Shown here: in pieces, positions 1,074 to 56,387 of the stretch
Numbering within the stretch: position 1 is the first letter of the stretch
Layout of the letters: each line of letters begins with the position of its first letter
Virus record (IMG/VR): IMGVR_UViG_3300035682_000026
Direction: 5' to 3' (one strand)
DNA: 64,000 nt
From: an uncultured virus (IMG/VR IMGVR_UViG_3300035682_000026)
Lineage: Duplodnaviria > Heunggongvirae > Uroviricota > Caudoviricetes
Made by a program: the position numbers and the translations under genes
The notes under the pieces: generated by a model
The model's input: only the letters and a program-made list of their open reading frames with translations
What the model was told of the DNA's origin: nothing
The model's database searches: none

Positions 1074-1745
1074 TTAATAACTTTTACCATTATTATATCT
1101 AATCATTCTATTGTGTCTCCCATTACCTTTATTCAAAGCTTTATATGTTGATGTTAAACTATGACAATTAGGACATAGTAACTTTAAATTATCTAATGAA
1201 TTATTTTCAGAATTCCCATCAATATGTTCTAACTCAATTGGTACTTTATTAGATGTTGGATTAATTGAACACCACCCACATTCCATACATTTTTCACCAT
1301 GAATATGAATGAGATATTTTTTAATCATTCTAGATTTAATTGTTGTGTCACCGTTTTCAATAGATTTAAAAATTAATTTAAGATTGTAATCTTTATTACA
1401 TTTATGATTACAATAAATTTTATTTTTACCAATGATAATATTACCACATTCTAAACAATTTTTGGTTTTTTTTCTTAAAGTGTTAGTAATTGTAACACTA
1501 CATGATTGTGAACAATATTTTCTATTATCTGAAATTAATGAATTGAAAGTGATACCACAACATTCACACTTTTTATCTTCGTGACATTTTTTAACCACAT
1601 AATCAGATTGTTTATAACCTAATTTATTTAATTTTTCTTTTATAGCTTTTTTACTTCTATTTAATAATTTAGCAATTGTTTCAAAATCATTTCCATTTTT
1701 TAACAAATTAATAACTTTTTCTGTTTCTTCTAAATCCCATCTCAT
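1074..1745 (-). CDS. HNH homing endonuclease with Zn-finger repeats
   Basis: LEHIDGNSENNSLDNLKLLCPNCH motif; start placed after the TATTTATAATAAA motif. Confidence 0.9.
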   Translation of the reverse strand: MRWDLEETEKVINLLKNGNDFETIAKLLNRSKKAIKEKLNKLGYKQSDYVVKKCHEDKKCECCGITFNSLISDNRKYCSQSCSVTITNTLRKKTKNCLECGNIIIGKNKIYCNHKCNKDYNLKLIFKSIENGDTTIKSRMIKKYLIHIHGEKCMECGWCSINPTSNKVPIELEHIDGNSENNSLDNLKLLCPNCHSLTSTYKALNKGNGRHNRMIRYNNGKSY

Positions 1746-1813
1746 AACATTTATTTTTATTATAAATATCACAAAATAATAAAAAAGCTAAAAAACTTTT
1801 TCGGAATACATAG

Positions 1814-1887
1814 AGCCTTGTATCGGGATTGAACCGATTCTATTCTAGGTTACAAATCTAGTGCACCACCATTTATGCGTACAAGGC
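1814..1887 (-). tRNA. tRNA-Thr(TGT)
   Basis: Cloverleaf, acceptor GCCTTGT/ACAAGGC, loop TT-TGT-AA. Confidence 0.9.
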
Positions 1888-1965
1888 AAAAATGAGATGG
1901 CATCGCTTACCATCTCGGAGTTGATATCATTACACTCCTTTGACATTTAAGTCAGCGATTTTTTG

Positions 1966-2047
1966 TGGGGCCGATAGGATTCGAACCTACTCAGCTTTCG
2001 CAACGGTGTTACAGACCGCCCCAACTCTCCAACTTTGGCGAGACCCC
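1966..2047 (-). tRNA. tRNA-Tyr(GTA)
   Basis: Loop CT-GTA-AC, long variable arm, GGTTCGAATCC T-arm. Confidence 0.92.
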
Positions 2048-3263: not shown

Positions 3264-3358
3264 ATAGTTATTACTATCCCTTCAACGCATCGAAGGCGGT
3301 TAGTGTTTACTCTTTATGTTCTTTATCTTTTTCATAATTTTTATTTTATTCTATTTTG

Positions 3359-3449
3359 TCTAAATGACGAGACTCGAACTCGCATTGAGCGTTTTAACAC
3401 TACTTCTCCATTCCAAGTGGAGTCGGCTTCCAATTGCCTTCACATCTAG
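3359..3449 (-). tRNA. tRNA-Pro(TGG) with long variable region
   Basis: C1-G72, A73, stem CTCCA/TGGAG, loop CT-TGG-AA, ~22-nt variable region. Confidence 0.85.
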
Positions 3450-3464
3450 TTTATTTTGTTGCAT

Positions 3465-3498
3465 AAAAAAACCCAGTTTAGATTTCTCTAACTGGGTT
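3465..3498 (-). terminator. attenuator terminator of tRNA operon 1
   Basis: AACCCAGTT-AGAGAAATCTA-AACTGGGTT followed by U tract. Confidence 0.9.
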
Positions 3499-3522
3499 AA
3501 TAAATAATACTTGCGTATTGTT

Positions 3523-3624
3523 TTACTTTATCATGTTTGACTTCATGACATACCCAGTTGTGCCTTGAGGCGTTCCGCCTTTAGGTTGATACTGTTTCGT
3601 TTGATATGTTTTTGTTGTCATCAT
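3523..3624 (-). CDS. leader peptide 1 MMTTKTYQTKQYQPKGGTPQGTTGYVMKSNMIK
   Basis: Between promoter and terminator; residues 3-25 all T/K/Y/Q/P/G. Confidence 0.85.
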   Translation of the reverse strand: MMTTKTYQTKQYQPKGGTPQGTTGYVMKSNMIK

Positions 3625-3659
3625 TGTTTCTAATTGTTGTGGGTTTTCCCCGTTTGTTT

Positions 3660-3701
3660 AATAAATATATGCAAATATACGAATGTTTTTCATTTAATCA
3701 A
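3660..3701 (-). promoter_or_regulatory. Bacteroidota-type promoter (TTG...TATATTTG) plus TATTTAT motif, tRNA operon 1
   Basis: Matches TAnnTTTG -7 consensus; near-identical to the operon 2 promoter. Confidence 0.8.
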
Positions 3702-3765
3702 GTTTTTTTTTAACTTTTTTTAATAAAAAATCATTTTATTATTTAAATCCTTGATATTAAAGGGT

Positions 3766-4209
3766 TTAACTGTTTAATTTTTTTAGTCTTCTTTTTTCTT
3801 TTGCCGCAGCTTTTTTGATTTTATCTCTTAATTCAGCTGCTAACTCATAATTTTCAACTTGTACAGCGTTTTCTAATTGTTCTTCTAAAGGTAGTTCTGC
3901 TTCAGGTGGTCCAAGCGGTTCATCACTAACTAATGTTTTAATTATTACACCTAATGGTTTATACCACATACGTTTTTCAAAATACATTTCACCATCACTT
4001 GAATATTCAATATCATCTGGTTCCCCTAATTGAGTATCAAGTTCTTCATCAAGTTTATTTAATTCATCACCTGTATAATTACCATCAGGGTTAATGTGTT
4101 TAAAACTATCAATCATATCAATGATTTTTTTAGCTTCTTTATTAATAAAATCATCTTCTTTTTTCTTTTCACCAAAGAATTTATTAAAAAGGTCATCAAA
4201 GCTTGCCAT
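3766..4209 (-). CDS. UvrB/UvrC-motif protein
   Basis: C-terminal LENAVQVENYELAAELRDKI. Confidence 0.75.
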   Translation of the reverse strand: MASFDDLFNKFFGEKKKEDDFINKEAKKIIDMIDSFKHINPDGNYTGDELNKLDEELDTQLGEPDDIEYSSDGEMYFEKRMWYKPLGVIIKTLVSDEPLGPPEAELPLEEQLENAVQVENYELAAELRDKIKKAAAKEKRRLKKLNS

Positions 4210-4793: not shown

Positions 4794-5615
4794 TTATGAT
4801 TTAAGGAGTAATTCTTTTATATCAGAAACTAATCTTCTATGACCATCACCATAAAGTTGCCAAGCTAACCCCATTGCTTTTAAATCATAATGTTTCAATA
4901 TTGTTGAATAATTAGTTTCTCCTTCTGGAAATCCAACTACATAAATACTATCAGCCAATTCAGCCGCTAAACGAATATCGTGTGTGGAGAATATAATCGT
5001 ATTTAATTCATTAGCAGCACTAATTTTATCAAATGATTGTTTTACTTTTTCAATATTCCCAACATCTAACCCAGAGAATGGTTCATCTAATATCATAAAG
5101 TGTTTAGATGTAAGCATTTGCTCAATGATTGCTGTTCTTTGTCTTTGACCACCAGACAACTCACACGAGTATTTATCTTTGTGTTCCATCAACCCCCAAT
5201 CAGTTAAATACTCATTAATTATAGTATCTTTTTCAGCTTTTGTAAGTGTTGATTTTCTCAAAGCATACTCACATATCTGCGTAATGGTTTTGTGTCTAAA
5301 AAGGGTGTATTTTTGGTCTACAAACCCCATATCACCTTTATCTAATGGTTTAGCATCATTCTCATCTTCTGTAGTTAAATCAGTAATAAGGACTTGACCT
5401 TGTGTTGGTTTAAGCAAACCAGTAAGTCCTTTGAAAAGAGTTGATTTCCCTCTACCAGAACGACCAATGAACGCAATAACTTGTCCAGTTGATTGGTGGC
5501 CTTCTCTAACAATATCTTTAATATCAAAATTGATATTTTTAAGAATTGATTTCCCATCGTAACCTAAGCTAACATCATTGATGTACAATAGGGTTTTTGT
5601 TTCTTTATAACTCAT
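4794..5615 (-). CDS. ABC transporter ATPase (NitT/TauT-like)
   Basis: GRSGRGKST, LSGGQ, ILDEP, H-loop. Confidence 0.95.
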   Translation of the reverse strand: MSYKETKTLLYINDVSLGYDGKSILKNINFDIKDIVREGHQSTGQVIAFIGRSGRGKSTLFKGLTGLLKPTQGQVLITDLTTEDENDAKPLDKGDMGFVDQKYTLFRHKTITQICEYALRKSTLTKAEKDTIINEYLTDWGLMEHKDKYSCELSGGQRQRTAIIEQMLTSKHFMILDEPFSGLDVGNIEKVKQSFDKISAANELNTIIFSTHDIRLAAELADSIYVVGFPEGETNYSTILKHYDLKAMGLAWQLYGDGHRRLVSDIKELLLKS

Positions 5616-5625
5616 AATTTTATAT

Positions 5626-5982
5626 TTAATAACTTATTGTTCCTAATCTGTCAAAACTCGTAGCACCTTTGGTTTTATTACATATCATTAAGATTTTTTT
5701 GGTTTCGTAGTGTTTTATGTAATTTTCATCAAAATCAACGCCACTATATTCATCAATAAGTGACCAATTATCAAAACCAATATCATGTAATTCATATAAG
5801 GGTTTTTCATCTCTCTGTTGTCTTAAATTTAAACTTTCTAACAATGCTGTTCTTTTCATTCGCATTAGTTGAGTTTCTATAATTTCAAAATCAACAAAAT
5901 CAATAGCTGCTGGATGAAACATTTTAACCTCAGCATTATCTGGAAGTTTATCCAATAACTCTTTTAGTTTTTTAACTTTCAT
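5626..5982 (-). CDS. hypothetical protein
   Basis: 118 aa ORF with its own TATCTTTG promoter. Confidence 0.65.
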   Translation of the reverse strand: MKVKKLKELLDKLPDNAEVKMFHPAAIDFVDFEIIETQLMRMKRTALLESLNLRQQRDEKPLYELHDIGFDNWSLIDEYSGVDFDENYIKHYETKKILMICNKTKGATSFDRLGTISY

Positions 5983-6112
5983 AATTTTATTTTTTATTAG
6001 ACCACAAAGATACGTTTATTTTCTAAAACACCAAATTAATTTATAGTTTTATTTTAAAATACTTGACTTTTTATAATATTTCTATATATTTATATGTATA
6101 CACAACGTAAAG

Positions 6113-6277
6113 ATGAAAAAAGAAATTAAACACAACAAATTAATGAATGTTAGAATGTCAGAAAGTCTAATAAAAGAATATAAAAATCATTGTGAAAATA
6201 ATGGTTTAGTTATATCAACAAGAATAAGGTTCCTTATCCAAAAAGATATTGAAGGTAAAATTAAAATAGAAAAATAA
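6113..6277 (+). CDS. small ribbon-helix-helix-like protein (54 aa)
   Basis: MKKEIKHNKLMNVRMSESLIKEYKNHCENNGLVISTRIRFLI; TAATG overlap with the HNH gene. Confidence 0.7.
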   Translation: MKKEIKHNKLMNVRMSESLIKEYKNHCENNGLVISTRIRFLIQKDIEGKIKIEK

Positions 6278-6909
6278 TGGAAAACAAGTGCTGTAGAGAA
6301 TGTGGTTTATCTAAACCATTATGTGATTTTAGTTTATGTACCAAAAATAAAGATGGTTACAATAACTTTTGTAAATCATGCCGTAACGCTAAAGATAAAC
6401 TTTATCGAGACCAAAATAAAGAAAAAATATCTAATCGTTTAAAAGAATATAATGCTAAAGAAAATGTAAAGAAAATGCGTAGTGAATATGCAAGAAAGTT
6501 TAGACAAGAAAACCTTTTAGAAATGAGAAAAAAAGCATTAGAAAAACAAAAACTATTAAGAGAGACTGACCCATTTTTTAGATTCAAACAAAGCGTTAGA
6601 AATAGGATTAACAATTCACTAAAACATAATGGTATTAGAAAAAATTCAAAAACTGCTATAATACTTGGTTGTTCTTTCCAAGATTTTAGGGATTATTTAG
6701 AATCTAAATTTGAATCGTGGATGAATTGGGATAACAGAGGGTTATATAATGGAACACCAGAATATGGTTGGGATATTGACCATATGATACCTTCATGTTC
6801 AGCTAAAACGGAAGAAGAATTAATTCAACTTAATCATTATTCCAATCTTCAACCTTTATGTAGTTACATTAATCGTGATATAAAAAGAAATAACCCTATA
6901 AAAATATAG
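6277..6909 (+). CDS. HNH-family endonuclease
   Basis: WDIDHMIP...NHYSNLQPL; paralog of 24509..25051. Confidence 0.85.
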   Translation: MENKCCRECGLSKPLCDFSLCTKNKDGYNNFCKSCRNAKDKLYRDQNKEKISNRLKEYNAKENVKKMRSEYARKFRQENLLEMRKKALEKQKLLRETDPFFRFKQSVRNRINNSLKHNGIRKNSKTAIILGCSFQDFRDYLESKFESWMNWDNRGLYNGTPEYGWDIDHMIPSCSAKTEEELIQLNHYSNLQPLCSYINRDIKRNNPIKI

Positions 6910-6919
6910 GGTTATTTTA

Positions 6920-7696
6920 TTAAAAATTAGAAAATCTAAATACAAGTTTTCGCAATCTAGTAAGTAAGAAATCTAAACAAACTCCAATTATAATTATAAT
7001 TGCTTGTATAGCAATAACTCTTCCGTTACTTCCAAGTCTATCACCATTTTTAATTAGTACACCTAAACCACCAGCGGCAACTAATATAGACTCTATCGTC
7101 ACCAACATAACCCATACAATTGCTAGATTTTGTCTAACCAATTCTATTACATAATCTAACCTACCTTTGATTACGACTTCCCATAAGGTTTCCCAATGAT
7201 TACACCCAAGTGTTTTAGCATGTTCAAATTCTTCATTTGGTATATCCTTAATCATTTGAATAAGACTGGTGATAAGAAATGTAGACATAAAGATAACAAG
7301 TACCCAAACTTGAATTTGTCTCGCATCTGAAATCATTATTGTAATGTAAAATGCTATTCCAGTTGGTGGTAAGTATCTTAATTTAGATAAGAATGTTCCT
7401 AATGATTTAGAGAAAGCAATTGTTGTTAAGTAAGCAAATATCATTGAGATAATCACTGAAAAGAATATTGCTTGGAAACACAATGATAGTGAACTAGCTA
7501 ACTGTGTAATAAGACCCTCTGACCATACATCACCTAAACCTTTAAATACTTGTGCAGGTGTTGGGAATAAATGTGTTGTTCCTATTGAACTGGACACAAA
7601 CCAAAATGTAATCAATAAAGCTAACCATACTGTTACAATGATTGTTTTTGAAGAACTTTTAAGTTCTTGAAACGGAGTAAAAAACTTTTTTATCAT
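6920..7696 (-). CDS. ABC transporter permease
   Basis: Multiple TM helices, EAA-like EHAKTLG. Confidence 0.9.
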   Translation of the reverse strand: MIKKFFTPFQELKSSSKTIIVTVWLALLITFWFVSSSIGTTHLFPTPAQVFKGLGDVWSEGLITQLASSLSLCFQAIFFSVIISMIFAYLTTIAFSKSLGTFLSKLRYLPPTGIAFYITIMISDARQIQVWVLVIFMSTFLITSLIQMIKDIPNEEFEHAKTLGCNHWETLWEVVIKGRLDYVIELVRQNLAIVWVMLVTIESILVAAGGLGVLIKNGDRLGSNGRVIAIQAIIIIIGVCLDFLLTRLRKLVFRFSNF

Positions 7697-7765
7697 TTTA
7701 TATAATTTAATTTATAAAAAAACCGTGACTATTTGCCACGGTTTTCTATATGTTTTATATGGCAA

Positions 7766-9580
7766 TTACTTTAATAACGTAATTTCAACTCTACGGTTTT
7801 TAGCTTTACCACTTGCAGTTGAGTTATCAGCTACTGGATTAGCATCACCTTTACCATCAACCGTTTGGAAACGGTCACCTGAGATACCTCTACCTTTCAA
7901 GTAACTTACAACTGATTGAGCACGACCATTAGATAATGTTACGTTACTAGCAGGATTACCTACGTTATCAGTATATCCAATCACTTTCAATTTAGTTTCC
8001 TCTGCTTGAGTTAACAAGTTATAGATGGTTTCTAAATCTTTGGTTGACCCAGAGATAGTTGCACTACCATTATCAAAGTTGATGTTCCATTGTCCGTTAG
8101 CTAATACTGAAGTTTTAGTTTCAGAATAACTAATTTTTTGAACACTACCTTTATCATTAACATTTGCAGATGTTAAGAAGTATAAGTTAACTGCATCATC
8201 GTAAGGTACAACACCATCTGGATTAGACTCATTAAAACCACATGGATTTAAGTCAGTCAAATAAGCTGAAACTTGTTCGTAAACTGCTTTATAACGATTT
8301 TTACCATCTGTGATACCGTAATACTGCATTGCATCAGCATAGTTAAATACACGTGAACCACCGATATTATAATCTAAACCATCTTTGGTACCTTTTTGAC
8401 CTTTAAACATATCATACCAGTATTTAGGTGTTTCAAAGTTATATGTTAAAGCTACAGCTTCTGAAGCTCTAACAGCCCATTCATCATATTGTTTAATTTG
8501 ATTAGAAGCAACAAATGTTTGTTTCAATATAGCGATAACTTCTTTATCGTGTTGCAAAGCCCATTCTTTAACACCTACAAGTGTTGTAGCCATTTGATTT
8601 ACAAACTCTTTAGTTGATACGATATCTGTAAAACCACTCAACGCATCAAAAGCCATTTTATCCCCTGGTGTCCATGTAGTTGCACCATCAATTTTATGAT
8701 TGATTGTTTTACCAGTTAATTTACCATTAACAACTTCTTTCAAAGGTACAGTATAACCAGTTTTTTGAGATTTAATCAATTCTTTTACAGAGTTAATATA
8801 ATCATCATCTTGTGATGGTACGAAGTTAATCGCATTGGCATCCCAAGTTGTTGGGTCTGGATTGATAGCAATTTTATTAGCAGCAGCATAGTTACATGCA
8901 ACTACCCAGTCACCATCACCAATTACTGAAGATATAACACAACCTTTCATTGATTGAGGATTATCTTTCCAAATTCTTGGTCCAATTACTTTATCTTCAC
9001 CATATGATAATCCATATGCTCCAAGAACTTGTACGTGATATTTACCTTTACCGAATTTTTCATCTAATGATTTTTGTGTAGTTGTAATATAGAATGGAAC
9101 ACCATCACCCATGATACTTACAGCAAATGCTGATTTATCTGATTTTGGATAAGCCACACCTGAAGCAAATTCTTCAACAAATTTAATTTGCATATCACGT
9201 AGACCACCTACCATGTCTTGTCTTACGATTTCTAAGTTAACACCTGCGGCTTCAATAAGAGACCCTTCAGTTGTTCTTGGTCCACCATTTGCAACAATCA
9301 TTCCAGCATTACCATTCCACGCATACTCCGCAATACGAATAAGTCCTTTCGAAGCTACTTCAGTAGATACCGTTTCTGATGGCAAAGGTAATTTAGCACC
9401 TTTAGTTACGTTGTTAAGGTCACCACCTTCAATTGTTAATCCAGTTAACTGTTTTGATACAGCCACTCTAAGTCCAGGTGCGAAAAAATACACACCAGTT
9501 AATAATACAGCAACACCTAGTGCTACGATAAAACCTTCTGCTAAGGTTGTTAATTTTTCTTGTTTAAGAATTCTTCCCAT
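7766..9580 (-). CDS. substrate-binding-like protein with C-terminal OmpA peptidoglycan-binding domain
   Basis: N-terminal TM; GYTDNVG...LSNGRAQSV...NRRVEI. Confidence 0.85.
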   Translation of the reverse strand: MGRILKQEKLTTLAEGFIVALGVAVLLTGVYFFAPGLRVAVSKQLTGLTIEGGDLNNVTKGAKLPLPSETVSTEVASKGLIRIAEYAWNGNAGMIVANGGPRTTEGSLIEAAGVNLEIVRQDMVGGLRDMQIKFVEEFASGVAYPKSDKSAFAVSIMGDGVPFYITTTQKSLDEKFGKGKYHVQVLGAYGLSYGEDKVIGPRIWKDNPQSMKGCVISSVIGDGDWVVACNYAAANKIAINPDPTTWDANAINFVPSQDDDYINSVKELIKSQKTGYTVPLKEVVNGKLTGKTINHKIDGATTWTPGDKMAFDALSGFTDIVSTKEFVNQMATTLVGVKEWALQHDKEVIAILKQTFVASNQIKQYDEWAVRASEAVALTYNFETPKYWYDMFKGQKGTKDGLDYNIGGSRVFNYADAMQYYGITDGKNRYKAVYEQVSAYLTDLNPCGFNESNPDGVVPYDDAVNLYFLTSANVNDKGSVQKISYSETKTSVLANGQWNINFDNGSATISGSTKDLETIYNLLTQAEETKLKVIGYTDNVGNPASNVTLSNGRAQSVVSYLKGRGISGDRFQTVDGKGDANPVADNSTASGKAKNRRVEITLLK

Positions 9581-9832
9581 TTGTTTTTATTTAATTGTTA
9601 TTGTTTAATTATTTAACGGTACAAAGATAATAATCTTTTTTAATGTACCAAACTTTTTTTACTTTTTTTTTATAAAATCGCCAATTAGAGAAACTACCCA
9701 TGCGATTTAAAACTCTGTTGACTTCCCATCTTACTCTATTGGCGTAGGCTTTCCTCTTTATATTTGTCCACCACTTTGCCTTGGGATACATAGTCAACCA
9801 AGGCTACTCGAACAGTTTTTTTATTATCTTAC

Positions 9833-10966
9833 TTAGAACATATCACCAAAACCACCTGATTTTGATTTATCTTCTGTTGTTAATTTGTAATCAACATTGT
9901 TGTATTTTTTAACATCTACAACATTACCATCACCACTTTGAATTTTATCTGCGATTGCATCTAAGTTAGCAAACAATTCATCAGAATTCAAATCGTAGTT
10001 TTGTGTCAAGCTTTCAATATCTTTAAAGTTACCAGAACTAATAGCAATATCAGCAGAAATTGTTGAAGTAATAACTTCCAACGCATAATCACGTTCCCAA
10101 TCACTAGAGAAGCCCATTGCTGATTTAGCAGCACTAGTTGCAGCATTTAATTTCTGACCAGTTTCGTAATCTTTTTTCAACATATCAACAGTGGCATCAA
10201 AATCTGAGATTTTAATATCCATACCAGTTTCAACCATAACCAATTTTTGATTGATTTTTTTCAATACATTAAAACGAGTTCCGTATTTTACTGTGAAGTC
10301 TTTAGATTGACTTGCTTTATTAGCAACTTGCATAGATGTAGCAAGTGTTTTTTGTAGTTCAGCAGCCAAATCAACATAGTCATCTTCGCTTTTAGCATCA
10401 ACACCCATCTTAGCCACCATAGCTTCCATATCAGCTTTGATTTTCTCAGCTTTACCTCTTAGACGTAAAGTTTCTTTATCACCTTTCTCAGCTTCTTCTT
10501 TTGCTCTCAACGATTCATTTTGCATATCTTGCTGTAATGACTTTAAATTACCCTTGGCAATTCTAAATGTAGCTTGATTAGCAATCATTTTCTGTCTTGT
10601 TATTTCTAATTGACCGAATGGGTCAAATCTAATAACTGATTTGTGCATGTATCTTGTAAGAGCACGAATACCTTTAAGGATTACTGGTGCCATGATTACC
10701 AAAGCTACAACAGCAATCGCAGTAGCAACCATTGCTAAGAATTGACCTAACGCAACCATAACTGGAGGCAATACATATACCCATAATAGGTATCCAAGCC
10801 CACCAAAGAATCCTAATTTTAAGAACCAATATAAGTTCTTTTCACCTTTTCTAAAGTTATCAACCTTAGTAACAATTTGACTCTCACTATAATTTTTCAT
10901 CATAGGTAGATTCATTAAATTTGCATTTAATGTTGGAGCCGATTTAAACTGAGTTTCTGTTCCCAT
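9833..10966 (-). CDS. membrane-anchored coiled-coil protein
   Basis: Two TM helices then long coiled coil; in operon with the ABC genes. Confidence 0.7.
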   Translation of the reverse strand: MGTETQFKSAPTLNANLMNLPMMKNYSESQIVTKVDNFRKGEKNLYWFLKLGFFGGLGYLLWVYVLPPVMVALGQFLAMVATAIAVVALVIMAPVILKGIRALTRYMHKSVIRFDPFGQLEITRQKMIANQATFRIAKGNLKSLQQDMQNESLRAKEEAEKGDKETLRLRGKAEKIKADMEAMVAKMGVDAKSEDDYVDLAAELQKTLATSMQVANKASQSKDFTVKYGTRFNVLKKINQKLVMVETGMDIKISDFDATVDMLKKDYETGQKLNAATSAAKSAMGFSSDWERDYALEVITSTISADIAISSGNFKDIESLTQNYDLNSDELFANLDAIADKIQSGDGNVVDVKKYNNVDYKLTTEDKSKSGGFGDMF

Positions 10967-10972
10967 TTTTAT

Positions 10973-11698
10973 TTATTTAACATTATTATTAATCCCTTGC
11001 TTTACTGTTTGAATAGAACCTGAAATTCTATCTTTAGCCATAGTGTTAGCAGCAAGTTTGCTATCAATTTCGCTAAGTTGTGGATTATATTTGCTATCAA
11101 TTGCTGATAGTTTTCTTGTACGGTCCTCAATTTGTGTTTTCAACGCTTCTAATTGATTTCTCATATCATTTAACTCATTGGTTAAAGATTGATTCTCATT
11201 TACTTTAAGCGATTCAACTTCTTGTCTTTTAGCTTGTCCTTTAGCTACGAAATCTTCGTATACTTTTTGAATCTCACCTAAATAGAAATCAGCTTGTTGT
11301 ATTAAACTAGTTTTAGAAATTGATTTATCCATAGCTGATACCATTTGAAATGCCATCGCATAAACAGTTGGATTATCAATACCACCACTGGCAACTGATT
11401 GATAAAACTCATAGAAATCAAAACCTGGTTGATTCAATGAATCAAAACCTTTTTGATAAAGTTCTAAAGCATTGTTTAAATACTCAGACGATGGTGCACT
11501 AGTAAAAACTGGTGTAGGTGCTGGTGTAAATGTTGGAGTTGCAGTTTCCGCAGTTGGAAAACTATAGGTAGAAGCAACTGGTACTTCTGTTGTTGCTGCA
11601 GTCGGAAACTTTGTAGTTGAAGCCGATTGTTTTGCAGTCTCTGTAGGTTTATCTGTTGATGTTTCATCACTAACAATAAACAAGTCTTTAAATCCCAT
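10973..11698 (-). CDS. coiled-coil protein, first gene of ABC/OmpA operon
   Basis: 241 aa, GFDFYEF motif, TATATTTG promoter upstream. Confidence 0.7.
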   Translation of the reverse strand: MGFKDLFIVSDETSTDKPTETAKQSASTTKFPTAATTEVPVASTYSFPTAETATPTFTPAPTPVFTSAPSSEYLNNALELYQKGFDSLNQPGFDFYEFYQSVASGGIDNPTVYAMAFQMVSAMDKSISKTSLIQQADFYLGEIQKVYEDFVAKGQAKRQEVESLKVNENQSLTNELNDMRNQLEALKTQIEDRTRKLSAIDSKYNPQLSEIDSKLAANTMAKDRISGSIQTVKQGINNNVK

Positions 11699-12456: not shown

Positions 12457-12477
12457 AGTATTAAATTTAAATATTAG

Positions 12478-12551
12478 TGGTGCGAGATGGATTTAAACCA
12501 CCGCCACCTAGCTTTTCAGGCTAGTGCTCTATCAGGCTGAGCTATCGCACC
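12478..12551 (-). tRNA. tRNA-Phe(GAA), second copy
   Basis: Stem CTAGC/GCTAG, loop CT-GAA-AA; T loop TTTAAAT. Confidence 0.85.
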
Positions 12552-12776
12552 TTTAATGGATAAACATTTCCAAGTGTCTATCCTTAGCAGTTTTTATATC
12601 TAGCATTGGCTGAAAACTACAAAACCAGTTCAATTTTTACTCTTGGAAGAGGGATAGTTGAACTCCAACCCAGTTGATATGGTACAACTATTAAACCCCG
12701 AACTTGAGTTGTCGGCAACTCTACGTAATCCTAACATTAAACTTCCTAGGTTTTAATGAAATTCTTACACACATTG

Positions 12777-12853
12777 TGGAGAAAGCAAGAATCGAACTTG
12801 CGACCTACGGACCCAATAAAGTGACCACATTCTGCCAACTGATATATTTCCCC
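12777..12853 (-). ncRNA. tRNA-like RNA with irregular anticodon arm
   Basis: Acceptor GGGGAAA/TTTCTCC and T arm good; anticodon arm poorly paired. Confidence 0.6.
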
Positions 12854-12993
12854 ATTTGTTAGTTATGTCTGTAGGACTTCTGACATAATTCCCTATGATT
12901 ATCTTTTTACAACCCCTCATAGAACTAACGTTTTTATTTATGCAAATATATACATAACATTTCAATTAAACAAGTTTTTATTAAACTTTTTTT

Positions 12994-13887: not shown

Positions 13888-13947
13888 ATTTTTTTTTACA
13901 AACATACAATAAAAATATAATTAATACAATAAAAAATATAAAATTTG

Positions 13948-14020
13948 TTGAGGAAGAGGGTTTCGAACCCTACACTACCACCCGTCTAGGTGGCCTTCTA
14001 ACCAATTAAAGTATCTCCCA
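13948..14020 (-). ncRNA. tRNA-like RNA with 6-nt anticodon loop
   Basis: D and T arms present; CCACC-TAGACG-GGTGG. Confidence 0.6.
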
Positions 14021-15513: not shown

Positions 15514-15543
15514 AAAAAAAGCCTGACTTATTAGGTCAGGCTT
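15514..15543 (-). terminator. attenuator terminator of tRNA operon 2
   Basis: AAGCCTGAC-CTAATAA-GTCAGGCTT followed by U tract. Confidence 0.9.
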
Positions 15544-15568
15544 ATCATTTTTATTATTAACTTAAACG

Positions 15569-15655
15569 TTAACTTATGACAGTGTTTGACCTTCCTTGTG
15601 AGTAATCCTCAAAGGCTGCAGTTTCAAATCTAAAATCGTTAGTTAATGTTCTCAT
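15569..15655 (-). CDS. leader peptide 2 MRTLTNDFRFETAAFEDYSQGRSNTVIS
   Basis: Core DFRFETAAFED has 9 of 11 residues F/E/D/A. Confidence 0.8.
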   Translation of the reverse strand: MRTLTNDFRFETAAFEDYSQGRSNTVIS

Positions 15656-15687
15656 TGTTTTTATTTTAAGGGTTTCCCCGTTTGATT

Positions 15688-15729
15688 AATAAATATATGC
15701 AAATATACGAATGTTTTATTAATAATCAA
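15688..15729 (-). promoter_or_regulatory. promoter of tRNA operon 2
   Basis: TTG...CGTATATTTGCATATATTTATT, as for operon 1. Confidence 0.8.
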
Positions 15730-18708: not shown

Positions 18709-18782
18709 TACCCCCGATGGGATTTGAACCCACACTGTACAGGGTTTAAGTCTGATGCCTCTTCCGATTGGGCTACAGGGGT
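18709..18782 (-). tRNA. tRNA-Leu(TAA), short variable arm
   Basis: Acceptor ACCCCTG/CGGGGGT, loop CT-TAA-AC, weak anticodon stem; overlaps the HNH stop codon. Confidence 0.75.
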
Positions 18783-19243
18783 CTTTTTTTGTTTCTAACT
18801 GTAGTTGTTTGGCTATGACAATTTGGACATAAAATTTTTAAATTTTCTAACCTATTATCCGTATTATCACCGTTGATATGTTCTAACTCTAAGGTTATTT
18901 CTTTACCATTCCATTCAACAATACCACATTCTTCACATTGTTTTGTTTTTATTCCTTCTTTGAATAATCTCTTTTTTAAACTATTACCGTTTTTATATGG
19001 TGAGTTTTCCACCAATGCATCGACTAATTCATAAGTTTTACCAAATGGGGTGAATTTTTCGCCTTGATTCCAAGCTGCACCAGTAAAATGACTAGTATCA
19101 ATTTCCCATTCTTTAAACTTAGCATATAATGTTTTGTAATTACCACCACATGCTTTCATATTCAACTCACGACATACACCAGCTACCGCTAATGATTTTC
19201 TAACCGCTTCTTCTAATTCTTCTTTAGTATGTTTATATCTCAT
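18773..19243 (-). CDS. HNH homing endonuclease
   Basis: LEHINGDNTDNRLENLKILCPNCHSQT. Confidence 0.92.
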   Translation of the reverse strand: MRYKHTKEELEEAVRKSLAVAGVCRELNMKACGGNYKTLYAKFKEWEIDTSHFTGAAWNQGEKFTPFGKTYELVDALVENSPYKNGNSLKKRLFKEGIKTKQCEECGIVEWNGKEITLELEHINGDNTDNRLENLKILCPNCHSQTTTVRNKKRPL

Positions 19244-19599: not shown

Positions 19600-20049
19600 T
19601 TATTTAATATTCTCATACCACCAACCAAATTGTTTAGATGTTCTGATTCTATGGCAATTAGCACATAAAACATTACATTTTTCTATTTCTGCTAATATAG
19701 TGGCCCAATTATACGAATATATCATAGACGAGATACCATATTTTTTTTCTTTTTCATCTTTATGGTCAAAATCTAAAACTATTGGATTAGATTCGTCACA
19801 AACAACACAATGGTGTGTTTTAAAATATTCTAATAAATTTACCCTATTTTCAGATGTTTTTATTTTTTTTCTTATGTTAATACGTTCTAAATATTCTTCT
19901 TTATATTTGGCGTAATGTTCTTTATTTTTTCTTTTTTCTTTATAACAACTTTTACATTGTGAATGTAATTTATTTGTTTTTTTATTTTTGAAAAAGAAAT
20001 CACAAATTTCTTTTTCTTCACCACATTGTGTACATTTTTTTGTTTCCAT
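19600..20049 (-). CDS. HNH endonuclease
   Basis: CVVC...LDFDH...KCNVLCANCHR. Confidence 0.9.
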   Translation of the reverse strand: METKKCTQCGEEKEICDFFFKNKKTNKLHSQCKSCYKEKRKNKEHYAKYKEEYLERINIRKKIKTSENRVNLLEYFKTHHCVVCDESNPIVLDFDHKDEKEKKYGISSMIYSYNWATILAEIEKCNVLCANCHRIRTSKQFGWWYENIK

Positions 20050-20228: not shown

Positions 20229-20263
20229 AAAAAAAACCCATTTAATTTGACTTAAATGGGTTT
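20229..20263 (-). terminator. attenuator terminator of tRNA operon 3
   Basis: AAACCCATTTAA-GTCAAA-TTAAATGGGTTT followed by U tract. Confidence 0.9.
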
Positions 20264-20287
20264 CATATTTTGAATGATTAAATTTAA

Positions 20288-20362
20288 TCAACAACCATAA
20301 CCCATCGTGCCCACCACTAGTGAACATAATACAAGGACCAATAACATTGCTAAATTTTTCAT
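20288..20362 (-). CDS. leader peptide 3 MKNLAMLLVLVLCSLVVGTMGYGC
   Basis: Core LLVLVLCSLVV has 10 of 11 residues L/V/C. Confidence 0.8.
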   Translation of the reverse strand: MKNLAMLLVLVLCSLVVGTMGYGC

Positions 20363-20402
20363 TTTTATTTTAATTTTTATGTGGTTTCTACCACGTTGTT
20401 TA

Positions 20403-20443
20403 ATAAATATAAGCAAATATACAAAAAGATTCCTAATAGTCAA
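20403..20443 (-). promoter_or_regulatory. promoter of tRNA operon 3
   Basis: TTG...TATATTTG followed by TATATTTATT. Confidence 0.75.
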
Positions 20444-38187: not shown

Positions 38188-38808
38188 TTATGCTCTACCT
38201 ATTACCCAGTTTTGTTCAAGCCAAATTTCAAGGACTTCTTTTTTTATTTTTTTGTTCTCACCATCTTTGGTTATCCAACAAGTACCATATTGTGAATTTG
38301 CTTCACCAATACCTGTATTTTTTCTTTGTTCAGACATTATTTTTTTAGTTTCTTCTGAGTGATTTTTTCCAATCCAATCATAAGATTTTTTATCTAAATG
38401 TAATTGTTTCATATTGTTAGAAACTATCTTTCTATGTTTCTCACTAAATTCTAAATCTTGTTCTAATTTATTTTTAAGAGCGTCACCACCACGTTTTGAA
38501 ATTTCATAACTAATAAACCCACCACAACCACCTTCTTTAAGGTTCATACATTTACCGTCAGAAATCAATTCTTTAGTAACAATCTCGGATTCTCTAAAAA
38601 CCAACGCTTCTTTAGAATCACAAAATTCTAGAATTTCTTTAGTATGTTTTTCCACACCATATTTTCTTATACTACGTTTTAGTATTCTTCCGCTACCCAT
38701 GTATCCATCTTCTAATGTATATGCACTATGCATACCAACATACCATTTTCCTGTTACATTACATGTTGTTTTATATATGTAATGTATATTTCTTACTTTT
38801 CTTGCCAT
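38188..38808 (-). CDS. GIY-YIG (Seg-like) homing endonuclease
   Basis: Close paralog of 2121..2768. Confidence 0.9.
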   Translation of the reverse strand: MARKVRNIHYIYKTTCNVTGKWYVGMHSAYTLEDGYMGSGRILKRSIRKYGVEKHTKEILEFCDSKEALVFRESEIVTKELISDGKCMNLKEGGCGGFISYEISKRGGDALKNKLEQDLEFSEKHRKIVSNNMKQLHLDKKSYDWIGKNHSEETKKIMSEQRKNTGIGEANSQYGTCWITKDGENKKIKKEVLEIWLEQNWVIGRA

Positions 38809-39921: not shown

Positions 39922-40110
39922 ATTTTATTCTTTTATATCAACAAAGATAATGGTAAACCCACCTTCTTTTTGAAATCTTAATTCACCATGATAACCACTT
40001 GCATCAGCTATCTTTCTATACTTGTCAACTATGAGGTCAAAATCTTTCATTAAGTTAACAGTTTTTTCTTTTCCTAAATTTCTCACTAGATTTCCCATAT
40101 TCATTAAAAT

Positions 40111-40146
40111 AAAAAAACCTGACTAGTTTTGATGTAGTCAGGTTTT
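40111..40146 (-). terminator. attenuator terminator of tRNA operon 4
   Basis: AAAACCTGACTA-CATCAAAAC-TAGTCAGGTTTT followed by U tract. Confidence 0.9.
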
Positions 40147-40168
40147 AATTGTTATATTTTGTTTTGAG

Positions 40169-40270
40169 TTATACTTCCGTACCACCTTGACAATTACACA
40201 TACCTGCTACTGGGCGACTATTACGTCTCCAATTGCTAATCGATATCATATGTATGTTAATTGTTGTCAT
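40169..40270 (-). CDS. leader peptide 4 MTTINIHMISISNWRRNSRPVAGMCNCQGGTEV
   Basis: Residues 4-19 all I/N/H/M/S/W/R. Confidence 0.88.
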   Translation of the reverse strand: MTTINIHMISISNWRRNSRPVAGMCNCQGGTEV

Positions 40271-40296
40271 TTTTTTGTTTGTTTTTAATTTCTTTG

Positions 40297-40327
40297 CAAA
40301 TATACTAACTTATTTAATACAAGTCAA
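40297..40327 (-). promoter_or_regulatory. promoter of tRNA operon 4
   Basis: TTG...TATATTTG. Confidence 0.75.
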
Positions 40328-54947: not shown

Positions 54948-56387
54948 TTATACTGTAATCGCAGAGTAACGCTCTGAATCAATTACATTCATCATCATTG
55001 AGTATGGACTCATATCTTTTCCACCCAATAGATTTGATAATAGTGATGGCGAAAATCCACTAACGAGGCAAGTCCCATTTTTATCAAATTGAACTGGTTT
55101 GTTAGAGTCGTTTCTAGAATGGATATTCCAGTAAACAATTTTTGGCATCACATAACCTGCTTCAGCATACAATTTTTCAAAAGTTTCTTGTGCAGTAGAG
55201 TCCCAATTTCCTCTAGTACCAGCATTGAATTCCATATCCGAAAGGATAAGAATCATTGTTGGCATTTCACTTTCTTGAACATTGCTATCAATAGCTTTTT
55301 TCAAAATTAAATTAAATACAGCTTCAACATTAGTTGACATATCCCATGCAGCGTTTTCTAATTGACTGTATCTTTCAGAAAGAGAACCTTTAAGGATTTG
55401 TAATTCTGGTCTGTTTGAGAAAGTAATAAACGCATCTTGAAACATACCTATATTTCTTTCAGATATGTATAATCCCAATGAGATTGCTACATCCATACAT
55501 GTTACACTTTGGCTGTTACCAGCAGAGCATGACATAGACCCAGAAACGTCAACAACTGGAAGGAATCTTTCATTGTTAGACTCCAAGAAGTTTGGCAATG
55601 CGTTCCATTGAGCGTTAGCACCTTTCACATTGTCTTGTTTAAGGTTTTTGATAACATCATATGGGTACAAAGCACCAGCATTGATTTTAGCTTCACCTTT
55701 TTCAACACTTGTTAAGTATTCTTGAAAACGAGCCAAGTCGTTTTTAGAAAAGGCTTTCATCAAATCACTCATTGCTTTTGAAGGCAATTTAGAGTATTCT
55801 ATTTTAGTCCATTCTCTAGCACACATCAATTGCTCAACAGTGTTAGAGTTTTCAACAAGTAACTTACGGTACTCTTTTGGAGATAACCCTAAGTGTTTTC
55901 TAAGTGTATTAGCTTGTCTTTTAGCATCACGGCTAGCAACGTTTGGACGTGGCATCCATTTGCATGCTAACCCATTTTTAGCGTTTAACGCTTCAGTGAT
56001 TATAGTTAATGCTTGATTCTCCAATGGAGTACCAAATAACACTAACATATCATCCCATCTACCAAATTCTGAAATAAGGTGTAGGTTTTTACCTAATACT
56101 TCTGTACGGTTCTCAGCCAAGTAAGAGATTATATCTTTAAATATTTGTCTTTCACCAGCACCACCACGTACATCTCTGGCCCAAAATAATAAACGCATAG
56201 CAGTCAATGGATTTTCTCCAAATGCTTTCGTAAATACATTAATTAGACGAGTTTTGTCAGCACCTCTCATTGCACCAATCTGGAAGAATAAATCTACACA
56301 GTGGTTTAATGATGACGAGTTAGTAACCATACCGTTTTCAGTAAGTGAATTTTTAGTTTGCATTGCAGATAATAATGAATTTCCCAT
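54948..56387 (-). CDS. DUF2828-family protein (TROVE/Ro60-like helical region plus vWA domain)
   Basis: TENG, RDVRGGAGER, GRWDD, KWMPR, VDVSGSM (MIDAS), SDMEF, YWN, VSGFS. Confidence 0.85.
   Translation of the reverse strand: MGNSLLSAMQTKNSLTENGMVTNSSSLNHCVDLFFQIGAMRGADKTRLINVFTKAFGENPLTAMRLLFWARDVRGGAGERQIFKDIISYLAENRTEVLGKNLHLISEFGRWDDMLVLFGTPLENQALTIITEALNAKNGLACKWMPRPNVASRDAKRQANTLRKHLGLSPKEYRKLLVENSNTVEQLMCAREWTKIEYSKLPSKAMSDLMKAFSKNDLARFQEYLTSVEKGEAKINAGALYPYDVIKNLKQDNVKGANAQWNALPNFLESNNERFLPVVDVSGSMSCSAGNSQSVTCMDVAISLGLYISERNIGMFQDAFITFSNRPELQILKGSLSERYSQLENAAWDMSTNVEAVFNLILKKAIDSNVQESEMPTMILILSDMEFNAGTRGNWDSTAQETFEKLYAEAGYVMPKIVYWNIHSRNDSNKPVQFDKNGTCLVSGFSPSLLSNLLGGKDMSPYSMMMNVIDSERYSAITV

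What the first reader, a model, noticed from the sequence alone, without database searches (positions are those of the whole stretch)
3465..3701. Attenuator 1: Thr/Lys/Tyr/Gln/Pro/Gly leader
MMTTKTYQTKQYQPKGGTPQGTTGYVMKSNMIK has 23 consecutive residues from the six amino acids whose tRNAs follow (Pro, Lys, Lys, Gly, Gln, Tyr, Thr). AACTGGGT (3552..3559) is identical to the terminator 3' arm and can sequester ACCCAGTT. An AGGCG-GAA-CGCCT hairpin just upstream could be a pause site (inference).
Basis: partly seen in the sequence, partly recalled or inferred. Interest (0 to 1): 0.88.

Follow-up and report, generated by a model that had tools for sequence, protein, structure and literature searches.

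The report
Leader-peptide attenuator gating phage tRNAs
This uncultured phage puts a tiny test gene, written in the six amino acids carried by the tRNAs that follow, and a switchable transcription stop in front of a tRNA cluster, so it probably makes those tRNAs mainly when ribosomes read the matching codons slowly; four such switches in this genome share out all 20 amino acids, and two cultured phages have the same design.

Summary
Confirmed. On the minus strand lie a Bacteroidota-type promoter, a 33-codon ORF (3624-3523), an intrinsic terminator (3498-3465) and tRNA-Pro, Lys, Lys, Gly, Gln, Tyr, Thr. Codons 3-25 are all T/K/Y/Q/P/G; only 1 of 38,760 six-residue sets gives such a run, and it is the tRNA set. 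Folding with a modelled ribosome gives the classical switch: the antiterminator (3559-3552 with 3497-3490) forms while the A-site is at codons 2-19 and is lost by codon 21. The sensing part is therefore codons 3-19, not all 23. Three sister leaders in the window complete a partition of all 20 amino acids. Related phages use other partitions, and their leaders gain or lose residues with the tRNAs. Cultured Cellulophaga phages phi38:1 and phi4:1 carry three matched leaders each. The pause role of the hairpin is untested, covariation within this leader family is not significant, and nothing shows translation or regulated read-through. Ten literature searches found no such control of tRNA genes. 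This scan noted the same device earlier on other DNA (125 notes, at least 120 genomes). Verdict: a new variant of trp/thr-type attenuation.

The parts
3672..3701 (-). Bacteroidota-type sigma70 promoter: TTG (3701-3699), 19-nt spacer, TAnnTTTG (3679-3672); start site inferred near 3667
   Evidence: Pattern scan, 30 hits on the gene-bearing minus strand against 9 on plus; consensus recalled; both boxes kept in homologues while the spacer is only 70% identical
3641..3668 (-). 5' leader: ATATTTAT motif (3668-3661) and a small G-C hairpin (3651-3641); role unknown
   Evidence: Sequence and fold; similar elements in sister leaders A2 and A3
3523..3624 (-). Leader ORF, 33 codons; sensing part is codons 3-19 (5 Thr, 3 Lys, 3 Gln, 2 Tyr, 2 Pro, 2 Gly)
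3603..3609 (-). Region 1 (codons 6-8), pairs with 3554-3548 when no ribosome covers it (anti-antiterminator)
   Evidence: Minimum-energy fold; both strands invariant in 8 aligned sequences; inference
3563..3585 (-). Hairpin directly 5' of the antiterminator arm (possible pause or ribosome brake)
   Evidence: Folds; pairs invariant in 8 sequences, with the unpaired A/C bases swapped in L076 and L104; function untested
3552..3559 (-). Antiterminator arm (region 2), codons 22-25
   Evidence: Exact complement of the terminator 5' arm; better duplex with its own arm than with 31 of 31 arms of other leader classes and 200 of 200 shuffles (row L115, identical ORF)
3506..3548 (-). Two inner hairpins (3548-3531 and 3519-3506) that close the antiterminator multiloop
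   Evidence: Fold; one two-sided and one one-sided pair change in homologues
3465..3498 (-). Intrinsic terminator: 5' arm 3498-3490, 3' arm 3478-3470, seven U at 3471-3465, about -14 kcal/mol
   Evidence: not listed by the simple scan; nearly invariant in homologues
3358..3449 (-). tRNA-Pro(UGG) with a long variable arm, first gene after the terminator
   Evidence: Rfam 27.7 bits, below the gathering score
2818..3263 (-). tRNA-Lys(UUU) twice, tRNA-Gly(UCC), tRNA-Gln(UUG)
1813..2047 (-). tRNA-Tyr(GUA) and tRNA-Thr(UGU), behind a homing-endonuclease gene (2801-2121)
   Evidence: no credible terminator between 3470 and 1700, the one hit lying in a tRNA
15515..15729 (-). Sister attenuator A2, ORF 15655-15569, before tRNA-Phe, Glu, Asp, Ala
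   Evidence: weakest match (9 of 27 residues, not significant alone)
20230..20443 (-). Sister attenuator A3, ORF 20362-20288, before tRNA-Cys, Leu, Leu, Val
40110..40327 (-). Sister attenuator A4, ORF 40270-40169, before tRNA-Ser, Trp, His, Ile, Met, Asn, Arg, Arg, Ser
   Evidence: run of 16 cognate residues

Best explanation
A ribosome-mediated transcription attenuator of the trp/thr type that controls a phage tRNA operon. Host RNA polymerase starts near 3667 (inferred). A ribosome translates the leader. If it runs freely it passes the arm at 3559-3552, the terminator folds and transcription stops at about 3465 (inferred from folding). If any of the Thr, Lys, Tyr, Gln, Pro or Gly codons among codons 3-19 is read slowly, the ribosome covers region 1 and leaves the arm free. 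The arm then pairs with the terminator's 5' strand before the 3' strand is made, and polymerase continues into the seven tRNA genes (inferred). The tRNAs made are those whose lack caused the stall, which gives negative feedback and an OR gate over six amino acids. The four leaders in the window cover all 20 amino acids, so the phage can top up whichever tRNA group is limiting. The most likely purpose is to restore decoding when tRNAs are lost during infection (inference).
For: Shown in sequence: promoter, ORF, arm, terminator and tRNAs in this order. Composition: 1 of 38,760 sets gives the run of 23; 0 of 1,000,000 random 6/4/3/7 partitions reach the observed 64 of 114 matches over the four leaders. 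Geometry: antiterminator probability about 0.84 with the A-site at codons 2-18, 0.74-0.76 at 19, 0.0-0.3 from codon 21. In distant homologues L161, L190 and L265 the cognate run ends at Pro18, right before the arm. Over 34 of 40 units, 412 of 543 residues before the arm are cognate against 102 of 335 after it. Natural experiments: G002 has four leaders matched to E/R, Q/F/T/V/L, H/N/I/W/S/R and Y/P/D/G/A/C/K; in G003 the Q/F/T/V/L-type leader has gained Pro, Glu and Lys and a further Ile, and its cluster has gained those tRNAs. With one leader per class for 8 classes, 2 of 40,320 assignments of clusters to leaders score as well as the real one. Cultured phi38:1 and phi4:1: 42 of 54 and 39 of 54 matches, 0 of 200,000 random partitions reach them. 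A purely cognate control region is what theory predicts for sensitivity (PMC1183508, passages).
Against: No expression, ribosome or read-through data. Covariation in the close family is not significant: 208 of 208 cells pair, but there is only one two-sided change and 62 of 500 shuffles reach it. The folding test is not very specific: terminators of other classes also gave an antiterminator probability above 0.5 in 85 of 120 trials; own arms beat all 25 shuffles in only 11 of 40 units, and 2 of 11 ordinary terminators in the window also scored above 0.5. Own arm was best among foreign arms in only 13 of 40 units. The match is imperfect in some relatives: no tRNA-Tyr was called behind the L013 leader, and L076, L266 and L190 carry Ala, His or Ser tRNAs without matching sensing codons. 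Three of 17 sensing codons (CCU twice, GGC) are not read by the phage tRNAs under standard wobble. Each amino acid has only 2-5 sensing codons, which lowers sensitivity (PMC1183508). At equilibrium the terminator still wins with the ribosome at codons 2-7 and 15, so the model needs folding kinetics. Coupling of transcription and translation in the host is assumed.
Confidence: 0.88

Rival explanations
1. Same switch, different purpose: it senses amino-acid starvation (uncharged tRNA) as bacterial attenuators do, not loss of tRNA molecules.
For: A stalled ribosome cannot tell the two apart. The match is by amino acid: 3 of 17 sensing codons are not read by the phage tRNAs under standard wobble, and the four leaders use codons that are rare in this phage (1 of 20,000 simulations as unlikely), as selective-charging theory predicts for starvation sensors (PMC1183508, passages).
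Against: Making more tRNA does not relieve a lack of amino acid, whereas it relieves tRNA loss (inference). Phage tRNA-Tyr and tRNA-Lys rescue phages from retron-Eco7 and PrrC, and rescue depends on promoter strength (PMC11555353, abstract and passages). The window also encodes two RNA ligases and a CCA-adding enzyme.
Confidence: 0.3
2. A general sensor of ribosome speed or a timer: any slow-down late in infection opens all four operons together, and the cognate composition matters little.
For: Multi-residue leaders have few codons per amino acid, so a global slow-down may dominate; the A2 leader matches weakly (9 of 27).
Against: Leader composition follows cluster content across at least three different partitions and changes with it inside one leader family; a general sensor would not need that.
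Confidence: 0.1
3. A constitutive terminator overcome by a phage antitermination protein that binds the 5' hairpin or the ATATTTAT box; the ORF makes a small protein or an sRNA.
For: A small conserved 5' hairpin and the ATATTTAT box precede A1-A3; the ORF is 97-98% conserved in DNA over codons 1-26 among close relatives.
Against: It does not explain the composition match, the complementary arm at a fixed position (codons 16-27 in 38 of 40 units) or the 19-32-nt stop-to-terminator spacing (inside a 12-45 filter). Many homologous leaders lack the 5' hairpin. A protein layer could coexist with attenuation.
Confidence: 0.04
4. Chance ORF and chance complementarity in AT-rich DNA.
For: Short ORFs are common here (103 of 25 codons or more in the first 12 kb); random sequence often pairs partly with such terminator arms (mean 0.42).
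Against: Statistics, and reading-frame-preserving differences in homologues (3-nt deletion in L013, 3-nt insertion in L073).
Confidence: 0.01

Closest known systems
Multivalent leader-peptide attenuators of enterobacterial amino-acid operons (thrL, ilvGMEDA and ilvBN leaders; also trpL, hisL, leuL, pheL)
   Same: Short translated leader rich in cognate codons, anti-antiterminator, antiterminator and intrinsic terminator; slow reading of the cognate codons gives read-through (PMC1183508, passages).
   Different: The regulated genes are tRNAs, not enzymes; the element is in a phage; six amino acids are sensed by one leader (two or three in thrL and ilvL, recalled); several leaders together cover all 20 amino acids.
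pheM leader of the E. coli pheST synthetase operon (recalled, not looked up)
   Same: Leader-peptide attenuation used for feedback on the supply of charged tRNA rather than of the amino acid.
   Different: Controls the synthetase for one amino acid, not the tRNA genes.
T-box riboswitches (Rfam RF00230 recalled; some are said to precede tRNA genes in Clostridia, recalled and not found)
   Same: Conditional termination by a terminator/antiterminator switch that reports tRNA charging.
   Different: T-boxes bind uncharged tRNA directly and have no leader ORF; no T-box match in the window.
Phage tRNAs as counter-defence against anticodon nucleases (T5 tRNA-Tyr against retron-Eco7, tRNA-Lys against PrrC; PMC11555353)
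   Same: Phage tRNA clusters that can replace host tRNAs; the level of expression matters.
   Different: There a strong promoter is described, and the text has no occurrence of 'attenuat'; here expression appears gated by decoding speed.

Membership tests
Leader-peptide transcription attenuators (trpL/hisL/thrL type) | Short ORF directly behind the promoter and ahead of the regulated genes | tested here: met
   33-codon ORF 48 nt behind the promoter box, stop 24 nt before the terminator
Leader-peptide transcription attenuators (trpL/hisL/thrL type) | Regulatory codons cognate to what the operon supplies | tested here: met
   17 of 17 codons 3-19 cognate to the downstream tRNAs; statistics
Leader-peptide transcription attenuators (trpL/hisL/thrL type) | Intrinsic terminator between leader and first gene | tested here: met
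   Stem of about -14 kcal/mol plus seven U, 16 nt before tRNA-Pro; predicted, not measured
Leader-peptide transcription attenuators (trpL/hisL/thrL type) | Mutually exclusive antiterminator that forms when the ribosome is on the regulatory codons | tested here: met
   Constrained folding; 10 of 300 synonymous null versions do as well; computed only, covariation not significant
Leader-peptide transcription attenuators (trpL/hisL/thrL type) | Polymerase pause that synchronises ribosome and polymerase | tested here: inconclusive
   Hairpin present and conserved; a pause-consensus site at 3545 is 18 nt from its base
Leader-peptide transcription attenuators (trpL/hisL/thrL type) | Leader is translated and read-through responds to cognate limitation | not testable with these tools
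   Only assembled contigs of relatives from RNA libraries were available
Amino-acid biosynthesis or synthetase attenuators in the strict sense | Regulated genes encode biosynthetic enzymes, transporters or synthetases | tested here: not met
   Downstream lie seven tRNA genes and a homing endonuclease
Rfam leader families and T-box | Match to a covariance model | tested here: not met
   Only tRNA and tmRNA matches at gathering score in the window; in 3300-3800 only tRNA and a chance NsiR1 hit at E 2.3

The most novel reading that the evidence does not exclude
Phages of Bacteroidota carry a complete surveillance system for translation: a few codon-matched attenuators split all 20 amino acids among them, read the decoding speed of each group, and switch on only the tRNA set that the host has cleaved or degraded. 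This would be an inducible, target-specific counter-defence against anticodon nucleases, and it would show that phage tRNAs are a regulated response to tRNA loss rather than a constitutive codon-usage patch.
Probability: 0.5. Interest if true: 0.92.

Novelty: new variant of a known kind. Interest (0 to 1): 0.82.

Why it matters
Why phages carry tRNAs is an old open question (codon usage, loss of host tRNA, or escape from anticodon nucleases). A leader that names the signal it listens to turns the question into a bench test: which insult opens which operon. It also extends leader-peptide attenuation from enzyme operons to tRNA genes and to viruses. The design recurs with different partitions of the 20 amino acids, and it is present in two cultured Cellulophaga phages, one of which already has an infection RNA-seq time course (PMC5335546), so the first test needs no new organism.

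Tried and rejected
Own assembly not held; the nearest record G001 ends before this leader and gave only promoter-like matches. No phage in the GenBank collection matches the leader DNA; the wider region matched only through tRNAs. The metagenome pattern scan gave 57 hits, of which 5 were true homologues (L080, L104, L109, L111, L115) and 52 were chance matches. The genome scan gave 5 hits; 1 was a leader (L272, an A4 homologue on a contig filed under a Gammaproteobacteria bin, probably misbinned) and none showed the device on a clear Bacteroidota chromosome; one narrow pattern does not show absence. Sequencing runs: three RNA runs held 5-6% of the words. Contigs of relatives in X2 and X3 cover the leader and one bridges the terminator into tRNA-Pro, but contigs show neither transcription, ends nor strand, so this is not used as evidence. 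The simple terminator scan missed this terminator. Structure covariation in 8 close sequences was not significant. The foreign-terminator control was weakly discriminating. A pause in his-type register was not supported. Literature: searches listed no paper on leader-peptide attenuation of tRNA genes; only the top listings were seen for the larger result sets (30 of 219, 20 of 31, 20 of 92), most subscription journals are outside the library, and no supplements were read. Term look-ups in PMC2965389, PMC11109978, PMC11555353 and PMC5335546 found no such description.

Full report
Context. The window is 30% G+C, with nearly all genes on the minus strand. It holds 26 tRNA calls and a tmRNA, plus RNA ligases, a CCA-adding enzyme, a DNA ligase, an endolysin and many homing endonucleases (58 ORFs scanned). 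Promoter-like sites of the form TTG-N-TAnnTTTG occur 30 times on the minus strand and 9 times on the plus strand; this consensus is the Bacteroidota one (recalled). The DNA ligase's best matches among deposited phages are Cellulophaga phages phi4:1 and phi17:2 at 54% identity. I read the window as part of a large uncultured phage of a Bacteroidota host.

Observation. From 5' to 3' on the minus strand: promoter 3701-3672, ORF 3624-3523, terminator 3498-3465, then tRNA-Pro, Lys, Lys, Gly, Gln, a homing-endonuclease gene, Tyr and Thr. I found no credible terminator between 3470 and 1700, so one transcript can cover all seven tRNAs; an ATATTTAT motif at 2794 could be an internal start for the last two (untested). 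The run of 23 residues is far from chance. The six residues are 32% of 13,968 residues in 48 window proteins, whose longest run is 8. Exactly 1 of 38,760 six-residue sets gives a run of 23 in this peptide, and it is the set of the downstream tRNAs.

Three sister leaders. The same layout precedes the other large tRNA clusters: A2 (15655-15569) before Phe, Glu, Asp, Ala; A3 (20362-20288) before Cys, Leu, Leu, Val; A4 (40270-40169) before Ser, Trp, His, Ile, Met, Asn, Arg, Arg, Ser. The sets have 6, 4, 3 and 7 members and cover all 20 amino acids without overlap. The leaders match their own sets at 64 of 114 residues; 0 of 1,000,000 random partitions reach this (maximum 59). A2 alone is not significant (9 of 27, p 0.16).

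Switch. I folded the transcript with a ribosome modelled as a 27-nt unpaired block at each codon. Before the terminator's 3' arm is made, its 5' arm pairs with 3559-3552 with probability about 0.84 for an A-site at codons 2-18, 0.74-0.76 at codon 19, 0.44-0.56 at codon 20 and at most 0.31 at codons 21-29. The antiterminator closes two small hairpins (3548-3531, 3519-3506). With no ribosome, codons 6-8 pair with 3554-3548 and the terminator forms, as in the 1:2 plus 3:4 state of classical attenuators. With the ribosome at the stop codon the terminator forms with probability 0.89. Caveats: at equilibrium the terminator also wins at codons 2-7 and 15, so the model leans on the order of folding; and at codons 30-34 the arm could pair again if pairing across the ribosome were allowed. 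The sensing window is thus codons 3-19, which holds all six residues; codons 21-25 extend the run but lie at or under the arm.

Close homologues. Seven related leaders were aligned with the window. DNA identity is 97-100% over codons 1-26, the stop-to-terminator stretch and the terminator, against 70% in the promoter spacer and 79% behind the terminator. Length differences in the ORF keep the frame. All 208 cells of the antiterminator structure pair, with one two-sided change; 62 of 500 shuffles reach this, so covariation is not shown. Three distant members (L161, L190, L265) have a different peptide of the same six residues, whose run stops at Pro18 just before an arm that has changed together with its terminator.

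Other lineages. A detector that asked only for a terminator ahead of a tRNA and an ORF of 20-45 codons ending 12-45 nt before it returned 40 distinct units from the window and loci L001-L268. These loci came mostly from promoter-like patterns and partly from patterns for this peptide, so the sample is not unbiased. In 34 of the 40 (6 left out as cut short with fewer than three tRNA types), 412 of 543 residues before the arm are cognate against 102 of 335 after it. With one leader for each of 8 classes (a ninth, cut short, left out), 2 of 40,320 assignments score as well as the true one. G002 (318 kb) has four leaders matched to E/R, Q/F/T/V/L, H/N/I/W/S/R and Y/P/D/G/A/C/K. In G003 the homologue of the Q/F/T/V/L leader has gained Pro, Glu and Lys and a further Ile, and its cluster has gained those tRNAs; its Y/A/C leader has no Pro and no Gly before the arm, and those tRNAs were not called behind it. 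Exceptions exist: extra Ala, His or Ser tRNAs without sensing codons (L076, L266, L190) and no Tyr tRNA called in L013.

Controls on the RNA switch. An antiterminator with probability above 0.5 was predicted in 40 of 40 units, lost after codons 16-25. Foreign terminators also passed 0.5 in 85 of 120 trials, because the arms are alike across classes. Shuffled ORFs gave a mean of 0.42 against 0.76; own beat all 25 shuffles in 11 of 40 units and all but one or better in 19 of 40. For this leader, 10 of 300 synonymous null versions did as well. Among 15 minus-strand terminators of the window, the four leader terminators scored 0.63-0.87 and 2 of the other 11 exceeded 0.5. The RNA evidence is therefore supportive but weaker than the composition evidence.

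Cultured phages. Cellulophaga phage phi38:1 (NC_021796.1) and phi4:1 (NC_021788.1) each have three short ORFs with terminators ahead of tRNA blocks, matched to P/E/Q/H/L/R, A/K/I/G/M/D/T/V and Y/S/N/W/F/C, again all 20 amino acids. Matches in codons 2-19 are 42 of 54 and 39 of 54; 0 of 200,000 random partitions reach them. I chose these start codons by eye (one is GTG), I placed Arg, which occurs in two blocks, in one set only, and the first phi38:1 tRNA (Ala) and the last phi4:1 tRNA (Cys) are my readings of genes that ARAGORN left unassigned. An earlier run with a longer annotated ORF gave 38 of 54 for phi38:1. The paper on phi38:1 infection transcriptomics has no occurrence of 'leader' and discusses only host tRNA genes in the passages found (PMC5335546, passages).

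What the signal is. A ribosome slows on an empty A-site whether the amino acid or the tRNA is missing. Fourteen of 17 sensing codons are read by the phage tRNAs under standard wobble; the four leaders use 36 different codons among 53 cognate positions and favour codons rare in the phage (1 of 20,000 simulations), part of which reflects RNA structure. Since the output is tRNA, the loop closes best for tRNA loss. Phage tRNA-Tyr and tRNA-Lys are known to rescue infection from retron-Eco7 and PrrC, in a promoter-dependent way (PMC11555353, abstract and passages). The purpose remains inference.

Comparison with what is known. It works like thrL or the ilvGMEDA leader (PMC1183508, passages), and it meets the testable defining features of leader-peptide attenuators except the nature of the regulated genes. 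It matches no Rfam leader or T-box family. Ten searches listed no description of such control of tRNA genes; I saw listings and abstract openings for these, and term passages for PMC2965389 and PMC11109978. Subscription papers and supplements were not seen and could hold a prior report. The scan's own notes record the same device in at least 120 other genomes; I had formed the reading before the first look-up and found the Cellulophaga cases, and I do not count the notes as support.

Verdict. A real, well-supported attenuator-like element and a new variant of a known kind. Confidence in ribosome-mediated attenuation of the tRNA operon is 0.88; confidence that its purpose is replacement of destroyed tRNAs is about 0.5. 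Interest 0.82.

Noticed in passing
window 3358-3449 (-); L111, L080, L161, L265: tRNA-Pro(UGG) of 89-92 nt with a long, class-II-like variable arm, C1-G72 and A73; the anticodon stem differs between loci but still pairs, and the window copy has A37. Proline tRNAs are normally short-armed (recalled).
   Followed up: partly
window 12776-12853 and 12477-12551 (-): A tRNA with anticodon UUA (would read the UAA stop) and a second tRNA-Phe behind the promoter at 12973, with no leader-terminator unit of the A1-A4 kind. A UUA tRNA was also called in L263.
   Followed up: no
window 13947-14020 (-); L012, L267: A tRNA-like gene with an unassignable four-base anticodon call, recurring behind the Phe/Glu/Asp/Ala cluster in relatives.
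   Followed up: no
window about 20230-20185 and about 19324-19290 (-): Two 5' halves of tRNAs cut off near the anticodon: one just before tRNA-Cys, one just before the HNH gene 19243-18773.
   Followed up: no
window 4794-11698 (-): A phage-borne ABC-transporter set (ATPase 5615-4794, permease 7696-6920, 604-aa protein with a C-terminal OmpA domain 9580-7766) with two unannotated genes upstream.
   Followed up: no
window 20827-44049 and 54948-56387 (-): RNA repair and modification genes among the tRNA operons: RlaP-type nucleotidyltransferase, two RNA ligases, a phosphodiesterase-like domain, CCA-adding enzyme, PARP-domain and ADP-ribosyltransferase-domain proteins, and a DUF2828/DUF7788 RNA-binding protein.
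   Followed up: no
window 1074-1772, 2121-2801, 18773-19243, 19600-20049, 38188-38808 (-): Homing-endonuclease genes sit inside or right behind three of the four attenuated tRNA operons, so their expression may ride on read-through.
   Followed up: no
window, minus strand; 3668-3661: The motif ATATTTAT occurs 24 times on the minus strand and 12 on the plus strand and follows the promoter box in most leaders of these phages; possibly a phage promoter or a protein-binding site.
   Followed up: partly
L073, L076, L111: tRNA-Gly with anticodon ACC in the homologous operon of relatives, absent from the window.
   Followed up: no
L155 and L199: A further leader class with a very mixed sequence before tRNA clusters that are cut short in the loci held.
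   Followed up: no
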